Shown: positions 1-55,189 of the stretch, piece by piece
Layout of the letters: each line of letters starts with the position of its first letter
Numbering within the stretch: the stretch's first letter is position 1
DNA from: Eledone cirrhosa
Taxonomy: Eukaryota
Assembly: GCA_964016885.1 (NCBI GenBank)
Contig: OZ024747.1
Span: forward strand, 38,874,001 to 38,938,000
Reading direction: 5' to 3'
Length of the DNA: 64,000 bases
Program-made: the position numbers and the translations under genes
Notes under the pieces: generated by a model
Databases searched by the model: none
Seen by the model: the letters and a program-made list of their open reading frames with translations, nothing else
Told to the model about the DNA's origin: nothing

Positions 1-1443
1 CACCTGCACAATGGACTCAGTCGACAACCGGATCAGTGTCACACGCGACAGCAGCTGTTCGACATAGCTCCACAAGTCAGCAATGCTCGGGCACTGAACG
101 AGCGCGTGCACAACGGTTTCGTCGCTATGCGCGCATCTCGGACAGGCTCGGCTGACGGCACATCCGTGCCTGTAGAGCTTATCTCGAACCGGCAGCGCTC
201 CCCGGTGGCACTGCCAGGCCAGGGATTTTTGGAAGTTATACATAGGCCCCGGGCTGAAAGTTCTCCGGAAGAGAGCAAACAGCTGATCTTCTTCGACGCC
301 CAGGATCTCTCCGAGAATGTCGTCGCTCTTCCCCTCCACTAGTCTTCTATAGAACGCCGAGGTGGATGTTCCACCGATGCTGGTGCCCAACTGGGAGAGG
401 GCAGTGAGCGCCTGGAGACATTCCAGTTTCCAAGCGCTATCCCTCGGTCTTTTTCTGACCCAGGACTGCAGCTCCCTCAAGGAGACAAGCTGTGGGAAAA
501 CGTGCCTGGCGAACGGCGACCACACCCGTTCACCATCAAGGATGCACCAGATATGTTGCAGCCCCAGCGCATGTTTGCGCATCATCAGCCATGGCATGCC
601 CAGTCCTCCACGCAACGGGTGTTGACAGCAGATGGATCATCTGACGATGGGAGCGCGTCCCTTCCGCAAAAAGCGGAAGAGGAGGCGCTCCATTTTCGCT
701 GGAGCAAGGAACGACGGTGAGGCGGTAGCAGATGACGAATGCGATGTACGCATTCGCCACTTCCGCCCGGCCTTTCAGGGACAGCTTCCTCTCAGCCGAT
801 CTTGGGTGAGGGAGGCCACCCTGATCGTCACCTCTTTCCAGTTTTTCTCCATCTGGAGGTCCGGTCCGAACCAGGCCCCGAGCAATTTAACGGGTCCGTC
901 CGTCCAACGCCCCACAACGCTGTTGGACGGCATGGACTTGCCTCTCCAGGTGCCTAGCTGAAGCCCACCAACTTTTCTGGACGTGTCTGGTGCTCGACAC
1001 CACGACGGTGACGTCGTCAGCGTAAGCCGACTCGGATTTCCCGCATCCTAGTTCGCGTGGGACGCCCCTCATCGCCCCCAGTTTGTGCAGTAACAGCTGG
1101 AGAGCCAATACATACAAGAGGGACGAGAGGCGACAACACTGGCGGACTGAGCGCATGATGCTGAACGGCTGCGACAGGTGACCGTTCACCCTCACAACTG
1201 AGCAGATGTCGCTGTACATAGCTACGATCCAACGTCTGAAAGCGGGCCCGAAACCGGCTGCCTCGAGGACCGCCGCCAGGTACCGATGGTCGACCCTATC
1301 GAATGTTTTGGATTGATCCAAGTTGATCAGGGCCCCACACTTGCCAGGTTCCTTAACCACCCTATCTATGATGTATCGCATGAGGTGGAGGTTGTCGTGT
1401 ATGGGTCTGTCCGGAGGCCGCATATCTGCGCCTCTCACACCAG
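1..1443 (-). mobile_element. L1/Tx1-clade LINE fragment (degenerate RT plus C-terminal zinc-binding region), 5'-truncated, runs off window
   Basis: ORF 887..1642(-) contains RT motifs LDQSKTFDRVDH, VRQCCRLSSLLY (GVRQGCPLSPLLY-like) and AYADDVT. Bases 1-530 are homologous to 2010-2500, which encodes the CPRC...H....CP motif. Confidence 0.9.
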
Positions 1444-1446
1444 ACC

Positions 1447-2515
1447 ATAATAATAATAATAATAATAATGTTTTCTTTATTAACCACAAGGGTTTACACA
1501 GAGTAGATATTAAGGACGGTACAGGACAATACAGGACGGTACAAAAGGGCATTTCTGTGTGTAAAAAAAAAACCAAAACAGAGGGTGTAATAATAGAACA
1601 ATGAAAAAATTCCCCAATAGGGGGGAGACTTCTGAGGGACATTCGTGGAGAAAGCCCATTAAAAAGCCACAGTAACCCTGACCACCAGGGTAAGTGACTT
1701 CTCCCAGTTTTTCACTTTTAATTTACAGACACATACTCAGAGTAGGCAATTCACTCGGGCCATTCTTGCCTCTCTCACCCATCTTTCAACTAAATGCTGG
1801 GAAGAGAGCACTTCCCTTTCTACTATGATTTTCCTTTTCAAGTGAAATTGGAAAAAGTTAATCAGGGTATCAACGAAGAGGTAACTGTTCGTCTTCAGCC
1901 CTTTCAAACGTGTCCACCATAATATTTATTTCGCCATGGCCACCAGACAGATAAAAACTGCCTGCCCTTCCCGGCTAAAGGAAGAGGGCGGGGCCATCCT
2001 CACGATGGACTCAGCTGATAGCTGGATACGTCCTACACGCGACAGCATGTGTTCGACATAAACCCACAAGTCAGCAATGCTCGGACACAGGACCAGTGCG
2101 TGCAGGACGGTTTCGTTGCCCTGAGCACATCTCGGACATGCCCGGCTAACGCCACCTCCATGCCTGTCGAGTTTATCCCGAACTGGCAAAGCTCCTCGGT
2201 AGCACTGCCAGGCCAGGGATTTATGGAAGTTGTCCATAGGTCCCGGCCAGAAAGTTCTTCCGAAGAGATTGGCTAGTTGATTTTCGTCGACGCCTAGAGT
2301 ATCCCCAAGTACGTCGTCGCTCTTCCCCTCCACTAATCCTCTATAGAACGCCAACGGGGAGTTTCCACCGATCACATTGCCCGATAGGTCGAAGGCTGTG
2401 AGCGCCAGAAGACATTTCAGTCTCCAAGCGCTCCCTCTCGTCTTCGCTTGACCCAAGTAGACGAGCTGGGGAAAGACGCGTCTAGCAAACGGCGACCACA
2501 CCTGTGCACCGTCGA
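1447..2515 (-). mobile_element. L1/Tx1-clade LINE 3' end (zf-RVT-like C-terminus, 3' UTR, (ATT)n tail)
   Basis: ORF 1926..2501(-) reads AWQCYRGALPVRDKL...CPRCAQGNETVLHALVLCP. An (AAT)n tract at 1447-1468 marks the 3' tail. Homologous to 1-530. Confidence 0.85.
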
Positions 2516-2524
2516 ATAGTAATA

Positions 2525-2587
<63 letters not shown>

Positions 2588-2970
2588 CGTTTCATTTTTT
2601 CCGTTTATATATATATATATATATATAAACGGAAAAAATGAAACGAAATTTCATTTCTCACTCTTAGTACGGCTGTTACTTAAATATAAGTATGTATACG
2701 TACATACATATATGTATACAGACGTACAGTTGTATGTATATATATACATACATGCACACATATATATATGTACGTATGGGTTTATCGAACATTTAAGTAA
2801 CAGCCGTGCTAAGAGTGAGAAATGAAATTTCGTTTCATTTTTTCCGTTTATCGTTTTCGGTGCGCCCGGCCGATGAACTCACTCGATATGCAAATTAGGC
2901 TTCTCAGCCGTTAATATGCATATGGAAAGTATATACTTTCAGACGTTCAATAATCTGGCAGGAAGGTATA

Positions 2971-13240: not shown

Positions 13241-14487
13241 TTGTTATACTTTGGGAGGGTCATGTTGCTAATAAGAAACACACGCACCAGTTGCTTTCAC
13301 TTCAATTTATTATAATAAATTTATAAATTCAGGGATTTATAAATTTCCGGTTGATTGGTTGGTTCCACAACCAGATGGTTGTTTATATATTGCCAAATTT
13401 CTTTCGTCACGTCACACATTATGTGACCTCTTCAGTGACTGTGGATTCTTTTCTTTGTTTTTGTGCCTCTCCTTTGTTCTGTCCTACGCCATCTTGTTTC
13501 TCTGTGTATGTTATGTGCTCAGTCTGCGCATGCGCCACATCCGGATGTCTGTGTGTGTTTATATTCGTTTATTTATTTGTTTATTTACATGTATTACTGG
13601 TTGGTTGTTTGTTCTATGTGCGTGTGTGTTTTCATTTTGTCCTTAATTGTAAGTTGTTTTGTTGCTATTCCACTCATGTTTTCTATTTAATTTTGGTTGT
13701 AATTCTTTTATGTTTATTGCCTCTGTGATTTGTCTAAACATTGCGTCTTTTCTGTGTGTAGATTCTATTTTTATTTCTATGTTCTCTAATTTACCCTTAT
13801 GTTCTATTTTAACATGTTGGTAGAGTACAGATGATTCTTTACTATCTTGAAGGTCTCGCCAGTGTTCATTTATCCGTTCCCCTACACTACGAGCTGTCTC
13901 ACCTATGTACACTATATTTTTATCTCTATATCGTCCTTCAGTACATCTTATGCTATATACTACATTTCTAGTTTTACAGTTAATATGGGGGCTTAATTTA
14001 CAGGTTATACATTTCTTAACTATACAGGGGGTCTTTCAAAAGGATATGTCTTGCTAATAAGTGTTTTTATGGAGGTACCTGGTCTTTCTACTATCTTAAT
14101 ATTGAGTTTATGTTTATCTAGGGCCATTCTAAATTTGTAAGCTAATTCACCTTTAGGGCTTGTATCGATGAACTTTACACTCTGGTATTTATTTATATCA
14201 TACCATGAGTTTATTCTATTAGTCTTATTCCTAGTTCGTTCTATTCTATTCCAACATTTGCTCCTATACAAGGGGCAGGGCCCATTTGTGTCATTATTTA
14301 CCATTTTTTCCCATTTGGTTCTGGCTCCTCTATACACTCTGATTTTATCTCTCTGATTGTAACCAAAGAACTGCATACGGTGGATGAAGTGTTGTATGTG
14401 TCTCTCTAGTTCTTCGGGGTTGCACATGCGGGACACGTTTCTCATCACCCGTACCAAATCCGCTATCAGTATGTTCATTTTGGTCGA
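13241..14487 (-). mobile_element. Penelope-like element 3' half (RT thumb, Cys-rich linker, GIY-YIG endonuclease, pLTR), inverted copy
   Basis: ORF 14020..14823(-) reads ...NVSRMCNPEELERHIQHFIHRMQ..., and after a frameshift near 14025 ORF 13643..13912(-) reads YIGETARSVGERINEH...RQITEAINIKELQPKLN. Confidence 0.9.
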
Positions 14488-17185
14488 CTCTGATGAATTA
14501 TCTGTATTACAACTGCCGCCTAAGTATGCCACATTCAATAAGGTAAATATTATTAGATGTTTGTCAGAAATAGAAAAATCATTTACAAAATTACGTTGGA
14601 GCCTCAAAAACAAAAACAAAAACAAAAGTAACAACATACGCACACACATATACAACACGCATCCCAACAACAACAGACACACAGACACAAACAAGAATAA
14701 CAACAACACACACATCAACAATAATAACATACTCAGAAACAACAACAATAGACACGCAGACACAAACAACAATAACAACACACACAACAATAATAACCTA
14801 CACGAAGACAACAACAACAACACACATCAACAACAACACACATCAACAACAACAACGACAACAACAACAACACGCACACATTCAATGCCTCTCACCTTAA
14901 TCTTAACAAACACACAGGCACAGAAAACAGGTAATGGCAGTAGAACAGAAATAAGGGAAGGTAATAGGATTGAAAGGAGAAGGGAGACTATGGACAGGGA
15001 AAATAACCAAGACGAACACACAGACGCACAAAATAGAGTAGATAATAACAATGAGCCAGAGGAAAGAGACAGGAGTAATAATGAGAGACATAGAAACAAC
15101 CATGAGGCTGATGGTGGAAATAGAAATAGAAACAACACTATTAACAATAACAATAGCACTAGTACACATAAAGCAGCAGCCTGGAAGTCTACTTTTTATA
15201 ATACATCCGAAAAGTCGTTCGACCTGCGACGAGTCCACGCCATGACTTTAGCTTTTAACAAACGCACGCAATTGCCGTCGCAGGGCGATGAACATACAGA
15301 AGCACAATTTAGTATAGCTAGATCTAAACTTAGAAATATTATAGAACAGTATAGCAAGAAGTATAATAGAATGGAGGCCCAGCAACTGGGAGAAAAATCT
15401 GCAAATGGCTTGAGTAAGCTCATGCAGCGTTCGCGTAATGGAGAGATAGCATGCTTTCCAACAGACAAGTCTGGCAGAATGTTGGTTGCCACTCTGCCAA
15501 ACTACATCCAGGTAATCCACCCACATCACTAACACAAGAGAAGTAACACCACAAGGGCATGAGGATAGAGAAAAAGCCCTCAATGCCCATATGGTGATGT
15601 GGACAAATATAATGCAGCCCAATAAAAGGACTGCCAACAAGTTCCAGGCATGGAACAATGATGTGCCGGCGTTGTATGGGCTTCGAAAAGACCATAAAAC
15701 GGGCAGTGACCCTGTCACGGGACCACCACCACGGCTAGTCTGTGGAGCTAACATTGCTAGTAACTACAGACTGTCCTACTCCCTCTCCCTGATCATATGC
15801 CCCATCATTGAAATATCCCCAGATGTACGTGACAGCACGGAGGACCTCCTCAGCAGAATCGACGAGAGTAACCGATCTAGGGACCTAACAAACTGCATAA
15901 TAGGTAGTATGGATATTGTGTCTCTGTATCCATCTATTGACGTGGATTTTGCTGTGGAGAAATGCGTAGAAATGATCAGTAAGAGCAATGTTGAGCAATG
16001 TTGAGTTCCGTTGGATTGATACAAGTGAGCTAGGACTACTACTTAAACTTACCTATAGTATAATTATGTAGACACACATGACCTTATAAACCTGTGCCCT
16101 ACAATACCAACGTGCCAAACGTGTCCCGCATGTGCAACCCCGAAGAACTAGAGAGATTCATACAACACTTCATCCACCGTATGCAGTTTTCTGGTTACAA
16201 TCAGAGAGATAAAATCAGAGTGTATAGAGGAGCCAGAACCAAATGGGAAAAAATGGTAAATAAGGAAACAAATGGGACCTGCCCCTTGTATAGGAGCAAA
16301 TTTTGGAATAGAATAGAACGAACTAGGAATAAGATTAATAGAATAGACTCATGGTATGATATCAATAAATACCAGAGTGTAAAGTTCATCGATACAACCC
16401 CTAAAGGTGAATTAGCTCACAAATTTAGAAGGGCCCTAGATAAACATAAACTCAATATTAAGAGAGTAGAAAGACCAGGTATCTCCATAAAAACACTTAT
16501 TAGCAAGACATACCCTTTTCAAAGACCCCCCTGTATAGATAAGAAATGTATAACCTGTAAATTAAGCCCCCATATTAACTGTAAAACTATAAATCTAGTA
16601 TATAGCATAAGATGTACTGAAGGACAATATAGAGATAAAAATATAGTGTACATAGGTGAGACAGCTCGTAGTGTAGGGGAACGGATAAATGAACACTGGC
16701 GAGACCTTCAAGACAAATCACAGAGGCAATAAACATAAAAGAATTACAACCAAAATTAAATAGAAAACATGAGTGGAACAGCAACATCACAACTTACAAT
16801 TAAGGACAAAATAAAAACACACACGCACATAGAACAAACAACCAACCAGTAATACATGTAAATAAACAAATAAATAAACGAATATAAACACACACAGACA
16901 CCCGGATGTGGCGCATGCGCAGACTGAGCACACAACACACACAGATAAACAAGATGGCGTAGGACAGAACAAAGGAGAGGCACAAAAACAAAGAAAAAAA
17001 TCCACAGTCACTGAAGAGGTCACATAGTGTGTGACGAAAGAACTTTGACAATATATTAACCAACCAACCAATCGGAAATTTATAAATTCCTGAATTTATA
17101 AATTTATTATAATAAATTGAAGTGAACGCAATGGTGCGTGTGTTTCTTATTGACCAACATGACCCTCCCAAAGTATAACAATACA
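14488..17185 (+). mobile_element. Penelope-like retroelement (Neptune-like, decayed): N-terminus, RT, GIY-YIG, pLTR
   Basis: Motifs SDELSVLQLPPKY, PTDKSGRM (PLE DKG-type motif), PALYGLRKDHK..PPRLV and GSMDIVSLYPSID (RT motif A), then linker CIDKKCITC..NC and VYSIRC...YIGETARS...H (GIY-YIG). Contains stops, a deletion of the YxDD region near 16100, and an EN deletion near 16715. Confidence 0.92.
17007..17049 (+). ncRNA. Hammerhead ribozyme in PLE pLTR (family D)
   Basis: GUCA-CUGAAGA-G-GUCACA/UGUGAC-GAAA-GAAC-UU-UGAC. Copies at 13392-13439(-) and 18241-18283(+). Confidence 0.7.
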
Positions 17186-18513: not shown

Positions 18514-19176
18514 ATGTATGTGTGTGTGTGTTGGGGTGTCTGTGCGTGTGCGTGCGGGTGTGTGTATGTGTGCGTGCGTGTGTATGTGTGCCTGTTTGCG
18601 TGTGTATGAGTGTGGGGTGGGCGGGGTGTATGCGTGTTTGTCAAATATCCGTATAGAGCGCTCTTCAGTACTACATATATGAGAATTAATTGAATATAAG
18701 ACTGCTGAGTTTTTGTTTCTACCTTTTAGATTAGACATGCAGGTTAACAAAATGTAAGTTGGATTACCATGCTGCTATAACAAATTGATTTTTCAATGCA
18801 TTGTATCATACTTCTCCCAACAGACTCAGGTACAATTAAAAATAATAGCGAGAAAAGTCCCACGTATCATATATAATTCTCTAGGACAAACATTAATAGG
18901 ACGAATATGATTTTTATCTTAGCCACAAGCCTAGAATTGTGGAATTATGGAATAATTAAGCATGTAACTCGACTCTAGTATTTGGCTAGCAATTCTAAAT
19001 TAACCTCAGAGGAATAAAAGGTAAACAACATCACAGTTGGATGAGAAATCTAAAATAAATGTATTGATTTGTATGTGATATAAAGGATTTTTCTTTACAA
19101 ATACACGGATTGCATTTTTGAATCGTCTATTAATTCCATGCTAGTTTACTAATTCATTATATATATATATATATAT

Positions 19177-19774
19177 ATAATATAAGATCAAAAGATGGTT
19201 AAAAGAGTTCTAAGTATTTTATTATGCGCATTTCAAAAACAAATATCATCATGGGATGATATCTGAGTTTTCATCAGATAAAATAGGGATACATGATATG
19301 AAGCTTAAACAACACTTGTGAATAGTGAAGTTTTAAATCAACATATGAAACATAATTTAAGATTGATGTATGTATCACCCATCTCTCCTCCTCTCTCACC
19401 CTTCCTTCTTATACTCCTCCCCAACCATTCTTTACTCTCATCTCCTCCTCTTCCTTACCTTTTCCACACACCCCCCTCACTTTTTCCCAATCTGATACAT
19501 CAATCTTAAATTATTTTTCATATGTTGATTTAAAACTTCACTATTCACAAGTGTTTTTTAAGTTTCATATCATGTATCCCTATTTTATCTGATGAAAACG
19601 CAGATATCATCCCATGATGATATTTGTTTTTGAAATGCGCATAATAAAATACTTGGAACTCTTTTAACCATCCTTCGATCTTATATTATTTATACTCCAG
19701 TCCTACAAACTGTAGAGTGCTACTTATCCGATATTTGCATTGCTTTATTGTGCTACAATAAAACTCACCTCCTA

Positions 19775-19777
<3 letters not shown>
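19177..19777 (+). repeat. Family E asymmetric fold-back element (arms 19177-19371 / 19495-19689, tail 19690-19777)
   Basis: Reverse-complement arms, pyrimidine-rich spacer, (TA)n at both ends. Related pieces at about 54356-54405 and 54998-55165. Confidence 0.9.
19581..19651 (+). ncRNA. Minimal type I hammerhead ribozyme (family E)
   Basis: UAUUUUAU-CUGAUGA-AAACGCAGAUAUCAUC CCAU GAUGAUAUUUGUUUUU-GAAA-UGCGCA-UA-AUAAAAUA. Perfect 8-bp stem I, long stem II, palindromic loop III. Antisense copy at 19215-19285(-). Confidence 0.85.
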
Positions 19778-19838
<61 letters not shown>

Positions 19839-19954
19839 AGTGCAACTTGGAGTTACTGCAGGTTAACCCGGGTGAGCACTCGATGTTTAGGTTCACTTCT
19901 GTGTTGAGGTATAGAGCTATAGAGAGTGTAACATATTATTATATTAACAGACGA

Positions 19955-22625
19955 GATCCCCTCCTTGGACGGTGGCTTATATCGTGACGATGCCCTACTA
20001 ATGACCCGGGCACTCAATAATAGCCAATTAGATAGACTACACAAACGACTTAGGTACATCTTTAAGACTCAAGGATTAGCGGTAGAAATTGAACCTAACA
20101 GTAGGAGAGTAAACTTTTTAGATGTCACCCTAGAATTAGACTCAGGTCTCTACCGTCCATACCACGAATCTAATAAAAATCTTAAATACGTCAACAGACA
20201 CTCCAACCACCCTACGAGCATAATTAACTCAATAGTTAAAAGCGTCTCCAATAGAGTGTCCACCCTGTCGGCTAATATAAATATATTCAACCAGCACGCG
20301 GAATACTACATCTCCGATCTTGTAAACGCTGGTTACATTGAGGTTTCTTACATCGACCCAAATAGAACCGTAACGCCGCCAAACATAACCGGACCCTTAG
20401 AAACAAACATAGAAGAGGTCACCACATCTAGAACAAATAATAACCTAAGACCCTCTGTAGCCGGAAGGGCAGCCAGCGTCACACGCAACCGTCAAGGTGA
20501 TAAAGCCATACTCTCCAACCCCAATAAGGACTCCGACTATCGCACACGTTTACGTAGTAATTAGAGACAAAAGACATAATGCCAATAGATTACTAGGAAC
20601 CCCTACGACACATCCGCCTGACCAAAACGCACCTACGCCACCATCTAACAAGAAAAACCTCACTAAACACCGCAGAGCCCGAAGTAGACCTATCAGATGG
20701 TACAACGCGCCGTATTCTATACACGTTGCCACCAATATACCGGGAACCTTCTTTAGGGCGCTTGAACAATCTTTTCCACACACACATAAATACCACAAGC
20801 TCTTCAATAGACACACTGTAAAAGTCTCTTTCTCCACAGCACCAAATCTAGACCACACAATAGCACACACTAATAGGACAAAAATACGAAAACACATGGT
20901 TGCTCCACAACAAATCACTACCACAAACCAGAACGAAACCACATACACAACACCCACATGCCAGCTCCACACAGCACGCCACCAACCGGCAACGTGCCAC
21001 CACACCGGTAACACCCAACTGCAACTGCAAAAAAACGGGCTGAATGCCCACTAAACGGGGAGTGCCTCGTTAAAAACATTGTTTACCGGTGTGATGTCAC
21101 AGCCGGCAATAAAGAGTACTCATATATAGGTGCGACCTCCACTACATTTAAGGAGCGCTGGTATAACCATACAAGCTCCTTTAAACATAGGCTGAAACGA
21201 TCCCAAACCAGATTGGCCGACTTGATTTGGGACCTCATGGACAAGAACATCGAATCCCAGGTCACATGGTCAGTCAAAAGACGCGTGGCGCAACTCCCCA
21301 GTGACAGAAACCACTGCAGGTTATGCCTGGCCGAGGCGGCAGAAATAATTAAATTAAAATCTGCCATAAACTATAGGTCAGACATAATTGTCAATTGCAG
21401 ACACACCAGGATGAACACATTTTCTGCACAAACATTGCGCGGAGAGCCGCACACTATCCATGACCCAGCATAATAATAACCACCTCTGCCCCGTATCACC
21501 ATCCCTCATTTCAGTGATTTGATTTTATTGTATTCCATGTAACCATTTGTAAGCCCGTTTTTGTATACCATGCCGCATACATCACCCCCACCAAAAATCA
21601 CATCGCCATACACCCCTCATCTTTGCAACATTGTGTTCTATCTGTCCTCTCTGTCAGGTTTTACCTTGCAAACCATAGTAACATCCGATCATACCACCCA
21701 TCGCCACCACCACCGCCACCACCACCACCACTGCACACATCGTTATATGTCTACCATCCCAAACCCGCAACCTTACTCCCCATGACCCCTCTGTCTACCC
21801 TAACCTACAACGCCACAAAAAATTCGATCCTGTATGTTTGCACACACCGCCACCGCCACCACTAGATGCATCCACATACTTCAACGATCACTAACATCAT
21901 TAACATCATCAACACATATCATCCCTTTACTCACAGAACGACTGTGTTACATCTGCTCTCTCCCTATGCTTTACTCTGTAACCCACCGTAACATCTGATC
22001 ATGTAATCATATTGTTGAACATATCACCCTATCACCACCACCACCATGACCACACACATCGCTATACGTCCACAAACTTCTTTCCCCCGTGTTCCCTATG
22101 TTACCTTTTAACCATCGTATTATTCGATCCTGTATATTTTTGTCGCTCACAACTCCACCACCTCCACCACAAGTCACAAGTCCATACCTCAACATTCATT
22201 AACTTCATTAACATCGCCAACACATACCTTCCCTCTCGAACCAACGCAAGTGTGTGTGTCTGTGTGTAAGTATTTTATATATGTGTGCGTATATATATAC
22301 AGATGAGCATATATATGCATATTGATATATGTACGTGTGGGTGTATATGATCGCGTGTATGTGTGTGTATATAGGTGTGTATGTATATATGTCAGTACAT
22401 ATGCGCATGTGTATATATACACAACGTATTTATCAGACTAAGAGTGTCTAGGTGTGTATCTCCCCATCGACTTGACACCACCAACACATCCACCACACCA
22501 CCACACACGCCACTACCATAAACAACAACACCACAACCACACCCCACACAACACAATAACCAGCCACAAACATACGCCAACCTGTCTACCGACAATCCAC
22601 TACCACCACACCACAGCCCACGCCA

Positions 22626-33552: not shown

Positions 33553-34152
33553 TCATACTATGCTCCGTAGGAGCATAGAGTGCTCAACTGGCATACCGCC
33601 TATGGAAGCATCTTAGCTACCATTAGACTTATATTAGCAGCTAGCCTACTCGCCGAGAGGCACCAATCACAAATATTCTGCCTTGACCGCTGGCCACGTG
33701 ATAGTTCTTAGCCATTTTGAATTCATTTCTGGCGGCGGTCATGGTAGAAAACTTAGTCCAGTCTGGGGTGTCTCCTGATGAGTTCCAACCTCATGGATAG
33801 ATGCAAGATCGGGTATATCCAAAAAATGGAATGAAACTACGGTAGTTGGGACTAAAGGAATTTTGATAAAATGTATGTGCATTTTTTCTTCAAACTTCTA
33901 TTCTGTACCTAACTCCGTGTAGTTGATAATTTGTCTAGTCAATTTCTACAGTCTATAAGAAATAACTAGATACATTTTATATGGCTGTACATGGCGGAAT
34001 ATAGTCTATATCTTTTCTCTATTATTTCTTCACAGTTACATTTTAAACTGATAGCCTCGTTTAAATGAATTTTTGTGTGGTTCATTTATACAGACTAGAG
34101 AGAAATACTGTATATATTTTATCTAATAGTCTTCAAACTTGCAATTTTATAT

Positions 34153-43218: not shown

Positions 43219-43481
43219 ATATATATTTATTCATATATATTACCAAAGATGTATATATATATAAATATATATATATATATGTAAATATATATATATTTAT
43301 AAAGATATATATATAACCAAAGATTTATATATATATATATATATATAACGAAGGAAAAGTGCTAAGGAACCAGATGGACTATAACGCACAAAAGTACTCA
43401 ATACTTACGATAGTAGAGTGGGTAATAGGAACGAGTAGGACCCCGACGGCTGACCTCAAGCCGTTTCGATGGCTAATTCTG

Positions 43482-43534
<53 letters not shown>

Positions 43535-43570: not shown

Positions 43571-43631
43571 TTTATCTGACGAGGGCGTACTGAAAAAAAC
43601 GATACAGTACCTTCGAAATATATATAATAAA
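43571..43631 (+). ncRNA. Minimal type I hammerhead ribozyme (family C copy)
   Basis: UUUAU-CUGACGA-GGGCGUACUG/CAGUACCUUC-GAAA-UAUAUA-UA-AUAAA. Confidence 0.75.
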
Positions 43632-43925
43632 ACATATATTTTGATTATGTGTATGTCTTCATTTATTATTTATAATATTCTGAATAATATATATATATAG
43701 AAAATGTTTGACCCAGACGGCAGAGCTCAAGCCGTTTCGACGGCTATTTCTGGTGCGTTATGGTCCATCTGGTTCCTTACCACACCTCCTTCGTTATATA
43801 TATATATTTGTCTGTAACCACACACACACATATATACGTATATATATATTCACATAAATATGTATATACGTATATATTTACATGTTTATATGTATGTAAA
43901 TACATACACAAACATACACACACAT

Positions 43926-54269: not shown

Positions 54270-54356
<87 letters not shown>

Positions 54357-54515
54357 AGAGGTGAGTTTTATTGTAGTACAATAAAGCAATGCAGATATCG
54401 GATAATACATATATATATATATATATGTATTAAAATAATCGGATATACATATATATATATATATATATATATGTATTAAAATAACAGTTTAAAGTGTAAG
54501 CAAAGAATATATGTG

Positions 54516-54963: not shown

Positions 54964-54996
<33 letters not shown>

Positions 54997-55189
54997 GTAG
55001 GGGGTGAGTTTTATTGTAGTACAATAAAGCAATGCAGATATCAGATAAGTAGCACTCTACAGCTTGTAGGACTGGAGTATAAATTATAATATATAAGATC
55101 AAAAGATGTTTAATGCGCATAATACATGGAACTCTTTTAACCATCTTTTGATCTTATATATTATTATATATATATATATATATATATAA

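What the first reader, a model, noticed from the sequence alone, without database searches (positions are those of the whole stretch)
19177..19777. Best-preserved hammerhead candidate, present in both arms of a TA-embedded hairpin element
19581-19651 has a fully canonical core, a perfect 8-bp stem I, a long stem II and palindromic loop III UGCGCA. Its reverse complement lies at 19215-19285. A shorter family member (54998-55165) folds back close to the TGCGCA/cleavage-site region, hinting that truncation or fold-back points relate to the ribozyme. This is the best construct for an activity test.
Basis: partly seen in the sequence, partly recalled or inferred. Interest (0 to 1): 0.75.

Follow-up and report, generated by a model that had tools for sequence, protein, structure and literature searches.

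The report
Penelope stub carrying a hammerhead ribozyme
This hairpin is one ordinary, dead insertion among thousands left by a Penelope-like jumping gene, but across the family most mirror-image copies join at the likely start of the element's RNA and twenty join exactly at the ribozyme's predicted cut site, likely a fossil trace that the ribozyme cuts in living cells.

Summary
The hammerhead motif (19581-19651) and its mirror copy (19215-19285) are real. They are the known pseudo-LTR ribozyme of a Hydra-type Penelope-like element (PLE); a parent copy with RT and GIY-YIG-type ORF is L061. This copy is not special: the 71-mer has 152 exact matches, and 72 of 103 sampled arms are equally intact. 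Family-wide, outer ends fall at two sites (+43..51 and +133/134 from the cut), one of each in 131 of 138 pairs. Inner ends are not uniform: 1,247 loci join near -123, a likely capped transcription start, while 20 independent loci join with both arms exactly at the predicted cut (20 of 30 comparable joints). Best model: both nicked strands of a TA target prime on one RNA at two fixed sites and the two cDNAs anneal. The layout is published; the cap and cut-site footprints I did not find in print, but this scan reported them earlier for other PLE families.

The parts
19158..19179 (.). left (TA)n target run
   Evidence: sequence
19172..19371 (-). short arm: inverted 5'-truncated pLTR copy, x=-149 to +43..+51 (outer end blurred by the TA run); lacks the tail
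19215..19285 (-). hammerhead motif of the short arm (one G-to-T change in stem II)
19373..19776 (+). long arm: 3' end of the PLE pLTR, x about -270 to +133
19520..19526 (+). family hotspot of inner ends (x=-123), inferred capped transcription start; both arms of this copy read through it
19581..19651 (+). minimal type I hammerhead: stem I 19581-88/19644-51, CUGAUGA 19589-95, stem II 19596-19631, GAAA 19632-35, palindrome 19635-42, predicted cut after 19643
19686..19694 (+). first fixed outer end of the family (x=+43..+51), inferred RT start site 1
19695..19776 (+). 82-base tail with small hairpins (19703-15, 19744-62), ending at the second fixed outer end (x=+133/134), inferred RT start site 2
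19778..19836 (.). right (TA)n target run
   Evidence: sequence
54995..55170 (.). second head-to-head copy: long arm on minus (54995-55113, +134 to +21), short arm on plus (55112-55170, -9 to +51)
54352..54405 (-). solo tail fragment of the same family (+134 to +81) in a TA run

Best explanation
The element is a dead head-to-head insertion of two truncated pseudo-LTR ends of a Hydra-type Penelope-like retrotransposon, likely made when both nicked strands of a TA repeat primed reverse transcription on one element RNA at two fixed sites 82-90 bases apart and the two cDNAs then annealed. Shown: identity with the pLTR of an ORF-bearing parent, two fixed outer ends, one of each per insertion, shared subfamily alleles in the two arms, and clustered inner ends. 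Inferred: the RNA starts capped at -123, RT starting in the 5' leader runs off that end (most copies), and a ribozyme-cut RNA served as template in 1-2% of cases (both arms start at +1). This copy reads past -123 with an intact ribozyme in both arms, so it was likely copied from the 3' UTR part of an uncut transcript. The ribozyme is predicted to need a second copy (8-bp AUGCGCAU helix III) or protein help.
For: Parent L061: 1.36-kb direct repeats 3,812 bases apart around an RT/EN ORF; the 405-base arm is 96-97% identical to their 3' ends. Hydra motifs DKT, CxCX5C, CxxC and CxH present (definitions; Hydra-1_Obim seen). Outer ends: 135 of 137 sampled arms at +41..56 or +127..136. Pairs: 131 long+short, 5 short+short, 2 unclear, 0 long+long of 138. 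Short arm reaches further 5' in 73 pairs, long arm in 13, equal in 45, so neither arm is simply a fold-back copy of the other. Arms differ at 3.8% of subfamily sites within an insertion against 40% between insertions (67 pairs). Inner ends: 1,247 loci join near -123; G directly before -123 in 32 of 93 arms against 38 of 190 elsewhere (p=0.012). Both arms at +1: 20 loci with different flanks, all long+short; 20 of 30 joints with an AT overlap among three equivalent AT positions (one search read by eye; p about 1e-12 on a flat null). All seven recurrent stem polymorphisms switch between Watson-Crick and G-U on this strand and the only variable core base is N7 (92 arms). In vitro, a Poseidon PLE nicks and extends both strands and starts at two internal sites that define the tail (PMC11167929).
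Against: No RNA start or cut was observed directly. The extra-G signal is modest (34% against 20%) and some G's are templated by the partner arm. CATATG and ATAT at -123 are palindromic, so annealing bias could add to that hotspot. Single-arm ends are not enriched at the cut: about 88 at -2..+1 (132 hits, 20 of 30 true) against about 25 per position over -26..+12 (1,238 hits, 23 of 30 true); those filters left out the +1/+1 palindromes. Shared alleles could also come from two RNAs of one source locus or from later conversion between arms. The 20 cut-site loci are unevenly spread (3 on contigs 1-7, 17 elsewhere), unexplained. L061 is 3.8 kb and frameshifted; Pfam and PDB searches did not call the RT.
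Confidence: 0.72

Rival explanations
1. One cDNA is primed at the target, folds back on itself (self-priming) and copies its own strand; the endonuclease then resolves the other end, leaving the tail on one side only.
For: Proposed in print for PLE palindromes (PMC3846280 passages; PMC8557442 passages). Explains shared alleles and one tail per insertion. Fits the 13 pairs where the long arm reaches further 5', including this copy.
Against: In 73 of 131 pairs the short arm holds 5' sequence absent from the long arm while the long arm holds the tail absent from the short arm. Joints overlap by 2-6 bases with no loop, and some carry an extra G on each arm.
Confidence: 0.12
2. The -123 and +1 clusters are DNA-level effects: short palindromic words (CATATG, AT, ATGCGCAT) favour annealing, or later symmetric deletion of hairpin centres, with no link to RNA ends or ribozyme activity.
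For: Microhomology clearly shapes other joints: of 50 short hairpins about 17 use a GTATT/GTTTT likeness and about 10 the 8-base palindrome (by eye). No single-arm excess at the cut.
Against: -123 ends also occur in solo arms and opposite many different partner ends. The +1/+1 joint has only a 2-base overlap, like -2/-2 (0 loci) and +6/+6 (3 loci), yet has 20.
Confidence: 0.12
3. It is a self-contained non-autonomous hairpin element or retrozyme that spreads as a unit through ribozyme-cut circular RNA.
For: Thousands of short copies (11,996 matches of a 20-mer) and a conserved ribozyme; retrozymes are reported to derive from PLE pLTRs (bioRxiv 10.64898/2026.07.22.740005, part 1).
Against: No short tandem monomers in the loci examined; joints vary from copy to copy; unit ends are not at the cut; the sequence is the pLTR of an ORF-bearing element.
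Confidence: 0.04

Closest known systems
Hydra clade of C-terminal EN+ Penelope-like elements, incl. Hydra-1_Obim (Craig et al. 2021, PMC8557442; passages, section 11 and supplement passages read)
   Same: DKT motif, CxCX5C linker, CxxC and CxH around the conserved E and N, canonical-order hammerhead near the 3' end, (TA)n insertion, inverted 5'-truncated partner, tail on one end
   Different: 3.8-kb unit with a 1.35-kb 3' UTR (Hydra are generally under 3 kb); RWI rather than RWK; tail of 82-90 bases rather than 30-40; a different hammerhead from Hydra-1_Obim; the passages read give no statistics of inner ends
Minimal PLE hammerheads (Cervera and de la Pena 2014, PMC4209133; parts 1-2 of 4 read)
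   Same: type I, short palindromic helix III predicted to work as a dimer; the paper already notes pairs of such motifs 100-700 bp apart on opposite strands, probably truncated PLEs
   Different: A-U or G-U instead of the conserved G10.1-C11.1; 15-16-bp stem II; 8-bp stem I
Poseidon PAc in vitro system (Frangieh et al. 2024, PMC11167929; parts 1-3 of 4 read, supplement 2 gave no text)
   Same: two internal RT start sites bounding the tail, AT-rich target, both strands nicked and extended, uncut RNA the main template
   Different: there the start sites lie inside the ORF and no reads ended at the cut; here they lie 80-170 bases before the ATG (+213) and 20 genomic copies begin at the cut
LINE-1 twin priming and cap-derived extra G (review PMC4859970; passages read)
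   Same: second target strand primes on the same RNA; untemplated G marks the capped start
   Different: L1 inversions copy non-overlapping parts of the RNA from a variable internal site (recalled); here both arms overlap and both start sites are fixed

Membership tests
EN+ Penelope-like element | single ORF with RT and C-terminal GIY-YIG endonuclease | tested here: met
   L061 ORF with YRDD and EN-type C-terminus, broken by frameshifts; 73 homologues, atlas clusters carry GIY-YIG and RVT_1; Pfam itself gave no hit on L061
EN+ Penelope-like element | pseudo-LTRs from partial tandem, with hammerhead | tested here: met
   1,359-base direct repeat at 97.6%, hammerhead in both
EN+ Penelope-like element | inverted 5'-truncated partner and tail on one end | tested here: met
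   131 of 138 pairs long+short; tail longer than the published 30-40 bp
Hydra clade | DKG changed to DKT | tested here: met
   SDKTNNLY in L061, D96 K97 invariant
Hydra clade | CxCX5C linker; CxxC and CxH flanking E and N | tested here: met
   CNCPVRTKC; CNLC and CLH
Hydra clade | RWK motif | tested here: inconclusive
   RW present, K replaced by I
Hydra clade | CCHH motif absent from the endonuclease | tested here: inconclusive
   no cysteines seen in the GIY-YIG core, but it is frameshifted in L061
Hydra clade | (TA)n insertion preference | tested here: met
   TA runs at nearly all outer ends
Hydra clade | placement in the Hydra clade on an RT tree | not tested
   motifs compared by eye; no tree built
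Type I minimal hammerhead | core CUGANGA, GAAA, UH and stems I and II | tested here: met
   polymorphisms keep pairing on this strand, N7 varies
Type I minimal hammerhead | G10.1-C11.1 pair | tested here: not met
   A-U 63, G-U 17, T-T 1 of 81; a conserved, not universal, feature
Type I minimal hammerhead | palindromic helix III for dimer folding | tested here: met
   AUGCGCAU duplex -10.5 kcal/mol; closing it in the monomer costs about 3 kcal/mol
Type I minimal hammerhead | self-cleavage | not testable with these tools
   only indirect: 20 loci begin at the predicted cut in both arms
Non-LTR retrozyme | short head-to-tail tandem units each with a hammerhead | tested here: not met
   none in loci examined; the only tandem period is the 3.8-kb element

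The most novel reading that the evidence does not exclude
The stubs of this family record the whole 5' anatomy of a PLE RNA in vivo: a capped start at -123, ribozyme cutting at +1 in a small share of templates, and two RT start sites used together, one per target strand, on a single RNA. That would be genomic evidence that a minimal PLE hammerhead lacking G10.1-C11.1 cuts in the germ line, and that most short copies are strong-stop-like products of priming in the 5' leader.
Probability: 0.55. Interest if true: 0.62.

Novelty: new member of a known kind. Interest (0 to 1): 0.38.

Why it matters
The locus itself is common retrotransposon debris. What matters is the family census: how PLEs make inverted ends, and whether their weak hammerheads ever cut in vivo, are stated open questions (PMC8557442, PMC11167929). 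Here thousands of copies give exact, testable coordinates for an RNA start, a cut and two priming sites. The value is reduced because the architecture is published and this scan has already noted the same pattern in other PLE families of this and another genome; this is one more family, with a well-controlled cut-site class.

Tried and rejected
Rfam: no hammerhead hit; minimal PLE hammerheads fit its models poorly (recalled). Pfam, PDB by sequence and by profile did not name the RT. RNA runs: no RNA holder listed; two contig sets of unknown kind were laid, they show a depth step near 19510-19525 but cannot show RNA ends and one may be the source sample, so nothing is built on them. My first test for a pile-up at the cut was negative and its filter left out the +1/+1 palindromes, found later by direct search. 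A DPE-like motif downstream of -123 was looked for by eye and not seen. Target-site duplication cannot be read inside TA runs. 'Fold-back at TGCGCA because of catalysis' rejected: the palindrome lies 5' of the cut and gives 8 bases of annealing by itself. The neighbouring PLE ORF at 19932-21473 is not the parent (45% identity over 131 aa to the L061 protein). Sequence look-up in earlier findings gave nothing. Searches for the cap and cut-site footprints in print; none of the passages read reports them, but subscription papers and figure-only supplements (PMC11167929 Fig. S2) were not seen.

Full report
Coordinates. x counts from the predicted cut: x=0 is window 19643, x=+1 is 19644.

Observation. 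A descriptor scan of the window finds four hammerhead-type motifs: 19581-19651 (+), 19215-19285 (-), 33770-33852 and 43571-43631. The first two are the arms of an inverted repeat, 200 bases at 96%, between TA runs. The 71-mer folds with stems I and II (z -2.9). Helix III does not form well in the monomer, but AUGCGCAU pairs with a second copy at -10.5 kcal/mol. Rfam gives no hammerhead match.

What it belongs to. The 405-base long arm is a genome-wide repeat: 11,996 exact matches of a 20-mer and 6,867 of a 30-mer. In L061 it forms the 3' end of two 1,359-base direct repeats 3,812 bases apart that flank a frameshifted ORF with a YRDD reverse transcriptase and a GIY-YIG-type end; the ATG is at +213. 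The ORF has 73 homologues, the best from an argonaut, so the host is probably a cephalopod (inference). Atlas clusters carry GIY-YIG, RVT_1 and HTH_animal. DKT, CxCX5C, CxxC and CxH match the Hydra clade as defined in PMC8557442 section 11, and the motifs line up by eye with Hydra-1_Obim. I took the Hydra lead from earlier scan notes and checked the motifs here.

Is this copy the best preserved? No. The exact 71-mer occurs 152 times. Of 103 position-sampled arms that hold the 5' half of the motif, 81 have an intact core and 72 also have the 8-bp stem I and palindromic loop. Pair 10.1-11.1 is A-U or G-U, not G-C. The motif is nonetheless under selection as RNA: in 92 ungapped arms the seven recurrent stem polymorphisms all switch between Watson-Crick and G-U on this strand (they would be A-C on the other), and the one variable core base is N7. 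These are a few inherited subfamily changes, not 92 events.

Outer ends. In 80 loci sampled by position along contig 1 (the first 100 matches, duplicates dropped), 135 of 137 arms end at +41..56 or +127..136. With further loci chosen by inner-end patterns, 131 of 138 head-to-head pairs have one of each, 5 have two short ends, 2 are unclear and none has two long ends. This is the published 'tail on one end', here 82-90 bases long, and it matches the two RT start sites shown for PAc.

How the two arms arise. The short arm reaches further 5' in 73 pairs, the long arm in 13, and they are level in 45. In most pairs each arm thus holds sequence that the other lacks, which a fold-back copy cannot give. 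The arms share subfamily alleles (3.8% differences against 40% between insertions, 67 pairs), as expected of one template RNA or one source locus. PAc nicks and extends both target strands and is predicted to be a dimer. I infer twin priming at two fixed sites followed by annealing of the cDNA ends.

Inner ends. 33 of 121 position-sampled arms begin at -121..-128, and 4 at -8..+2. Genome-wide, 1,247 loci have both arms meeting near -123. The base before -123 is G in 32 of 93 arms against 38 of 190 at other ends (p=0.012); in joints with untemplated spacers it is G in 23 of 72 against 11% of other spacer bases. Untemplated G marks capped starts in L1 and SVA, and the Drosophila Penelope start lies in the pLTR upstream of its hammerhead. 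So -123 is likely the capped start; this is inferred, and the ATAT palindrome there may add to the cluster.

The ribozyme link. Single-arm ends are about as dense at -2..+1 as over -26..+12 (true fractions 20 of 30 and 23 of 30). Those filters left out palindromes joined at +1. A direct search finds 20 such loci, with different flanks and all long+short. Among 50 of 52 listed tight joints, 30 use an AT overlap at -2, +1 or +6, and 20 of the 30 are +1/+1 (one carries a single change), 5 are -2/+1, 2 are +1/+6, 3 are +6/+6, none -2/-2 (read by eye; flat-null p about 1e-12). Both arms stopping at +1 is what one template with a 5' end at the cut would give, the same geometry as at -123. It is 20 against 1,247, about 1.6%. 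Joints centred on TGCGCA (about 10 of the first 50 of 133 short hairpins) need only the 8-base palindrome.

This locus. Its arms begin at -149 and about -270, upstream of -123, and both keep the cut site, so it likely came from the 3' UTR of an uncut transcript. The copy at 54995-55170 has arms beginning at +21 and -9 and also spans the cut. For an assay the whole hairpin is a poor construct, because it is predicted to fold into one long duplex; the sense leader, as a dimer or with protein, is the informative one. PLE minimal hammerheads showed no cutting as monomers and low cutting as dimers, and the PAc one needed protein.

Novelty. PLE hammerheads, opposite-strand pairs 100-700 bp apart, inverted partners and tails are in print. 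I did not find the cap hotspot or cut-site stubs in the passages read. Earlier notes of this scan report both for other PLE families, in this genome and another; my reading of the -123 start was written down, and the cut-site class was tested after seeing note e1-9939475. Verdict: an ordinary copy of a new family of a known kind, with a useful census; interest 0.38.

Noticed in passing
window 43571-43797 (+) and 43349-43486 (-): Hammerhead of another family with a G10.1-C11.1 pair and TATATA loop, followed 170 bases later by a similar CACCTCCT end into TA; an inverted copy of that 3' end lies upstream. More canonical at 10.1-11.1 than the finding's motif.
   Followed up: partly
window 33770-33852 (+): Hammerhead-type motif with a longer helix III (4 further pairs), which could fold as a monomer; family not traced.
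   Followed up: no
window 19838-21473 (+): 5'-truncated, frameshifted RT/GIY-YIG ORF of another Hydra-like PLE in the same TA run, 45% identical over 131 aa to the L061 protein.
   Followed up: partly
window 13643-16732: Rearranged pieces of a further PLE-like element on both strands, with an asparagine-rich N-terminal part, a DKS motif and a GIY-YIG-like end; not classified.
   Followed up: no
window 887-2591 (-): Broken non-LTR retrotransposon RT fragments.
   Followed up: no
L096:2220-2403, L117:3345-3527 (also L093, L098): The same short repeat has inserted into family copies, twice at x=+42..+54 with that stretch duplicated, i.e. at the first RT start site.
   Followed up: no
L061 (reverse strand positions 1511 and 5323): The upstream pLTR begins exactly at the ORF's stop codon, preceded by about 340 bases not found in the unit.
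   Followed up: no
L271-L290: Only 3 of the 20 cut-site palindromes lie on contigs 1-7, although 50 of 133 short hairpins lie on contigs 1-5; unexplained.
   Followed up: no
L163, L168 and others: A recurrent joint between stem I's 3' strand and the U-run of stem II (about 17 of 50 short hairpins), apparently by imperfect microhomology.
   Followed up: partly
L082, L064, L236: Short stutters of the -123 end are repeated two or three times at some joints, as if RT re-copied the RNA end.
   Followed up: no
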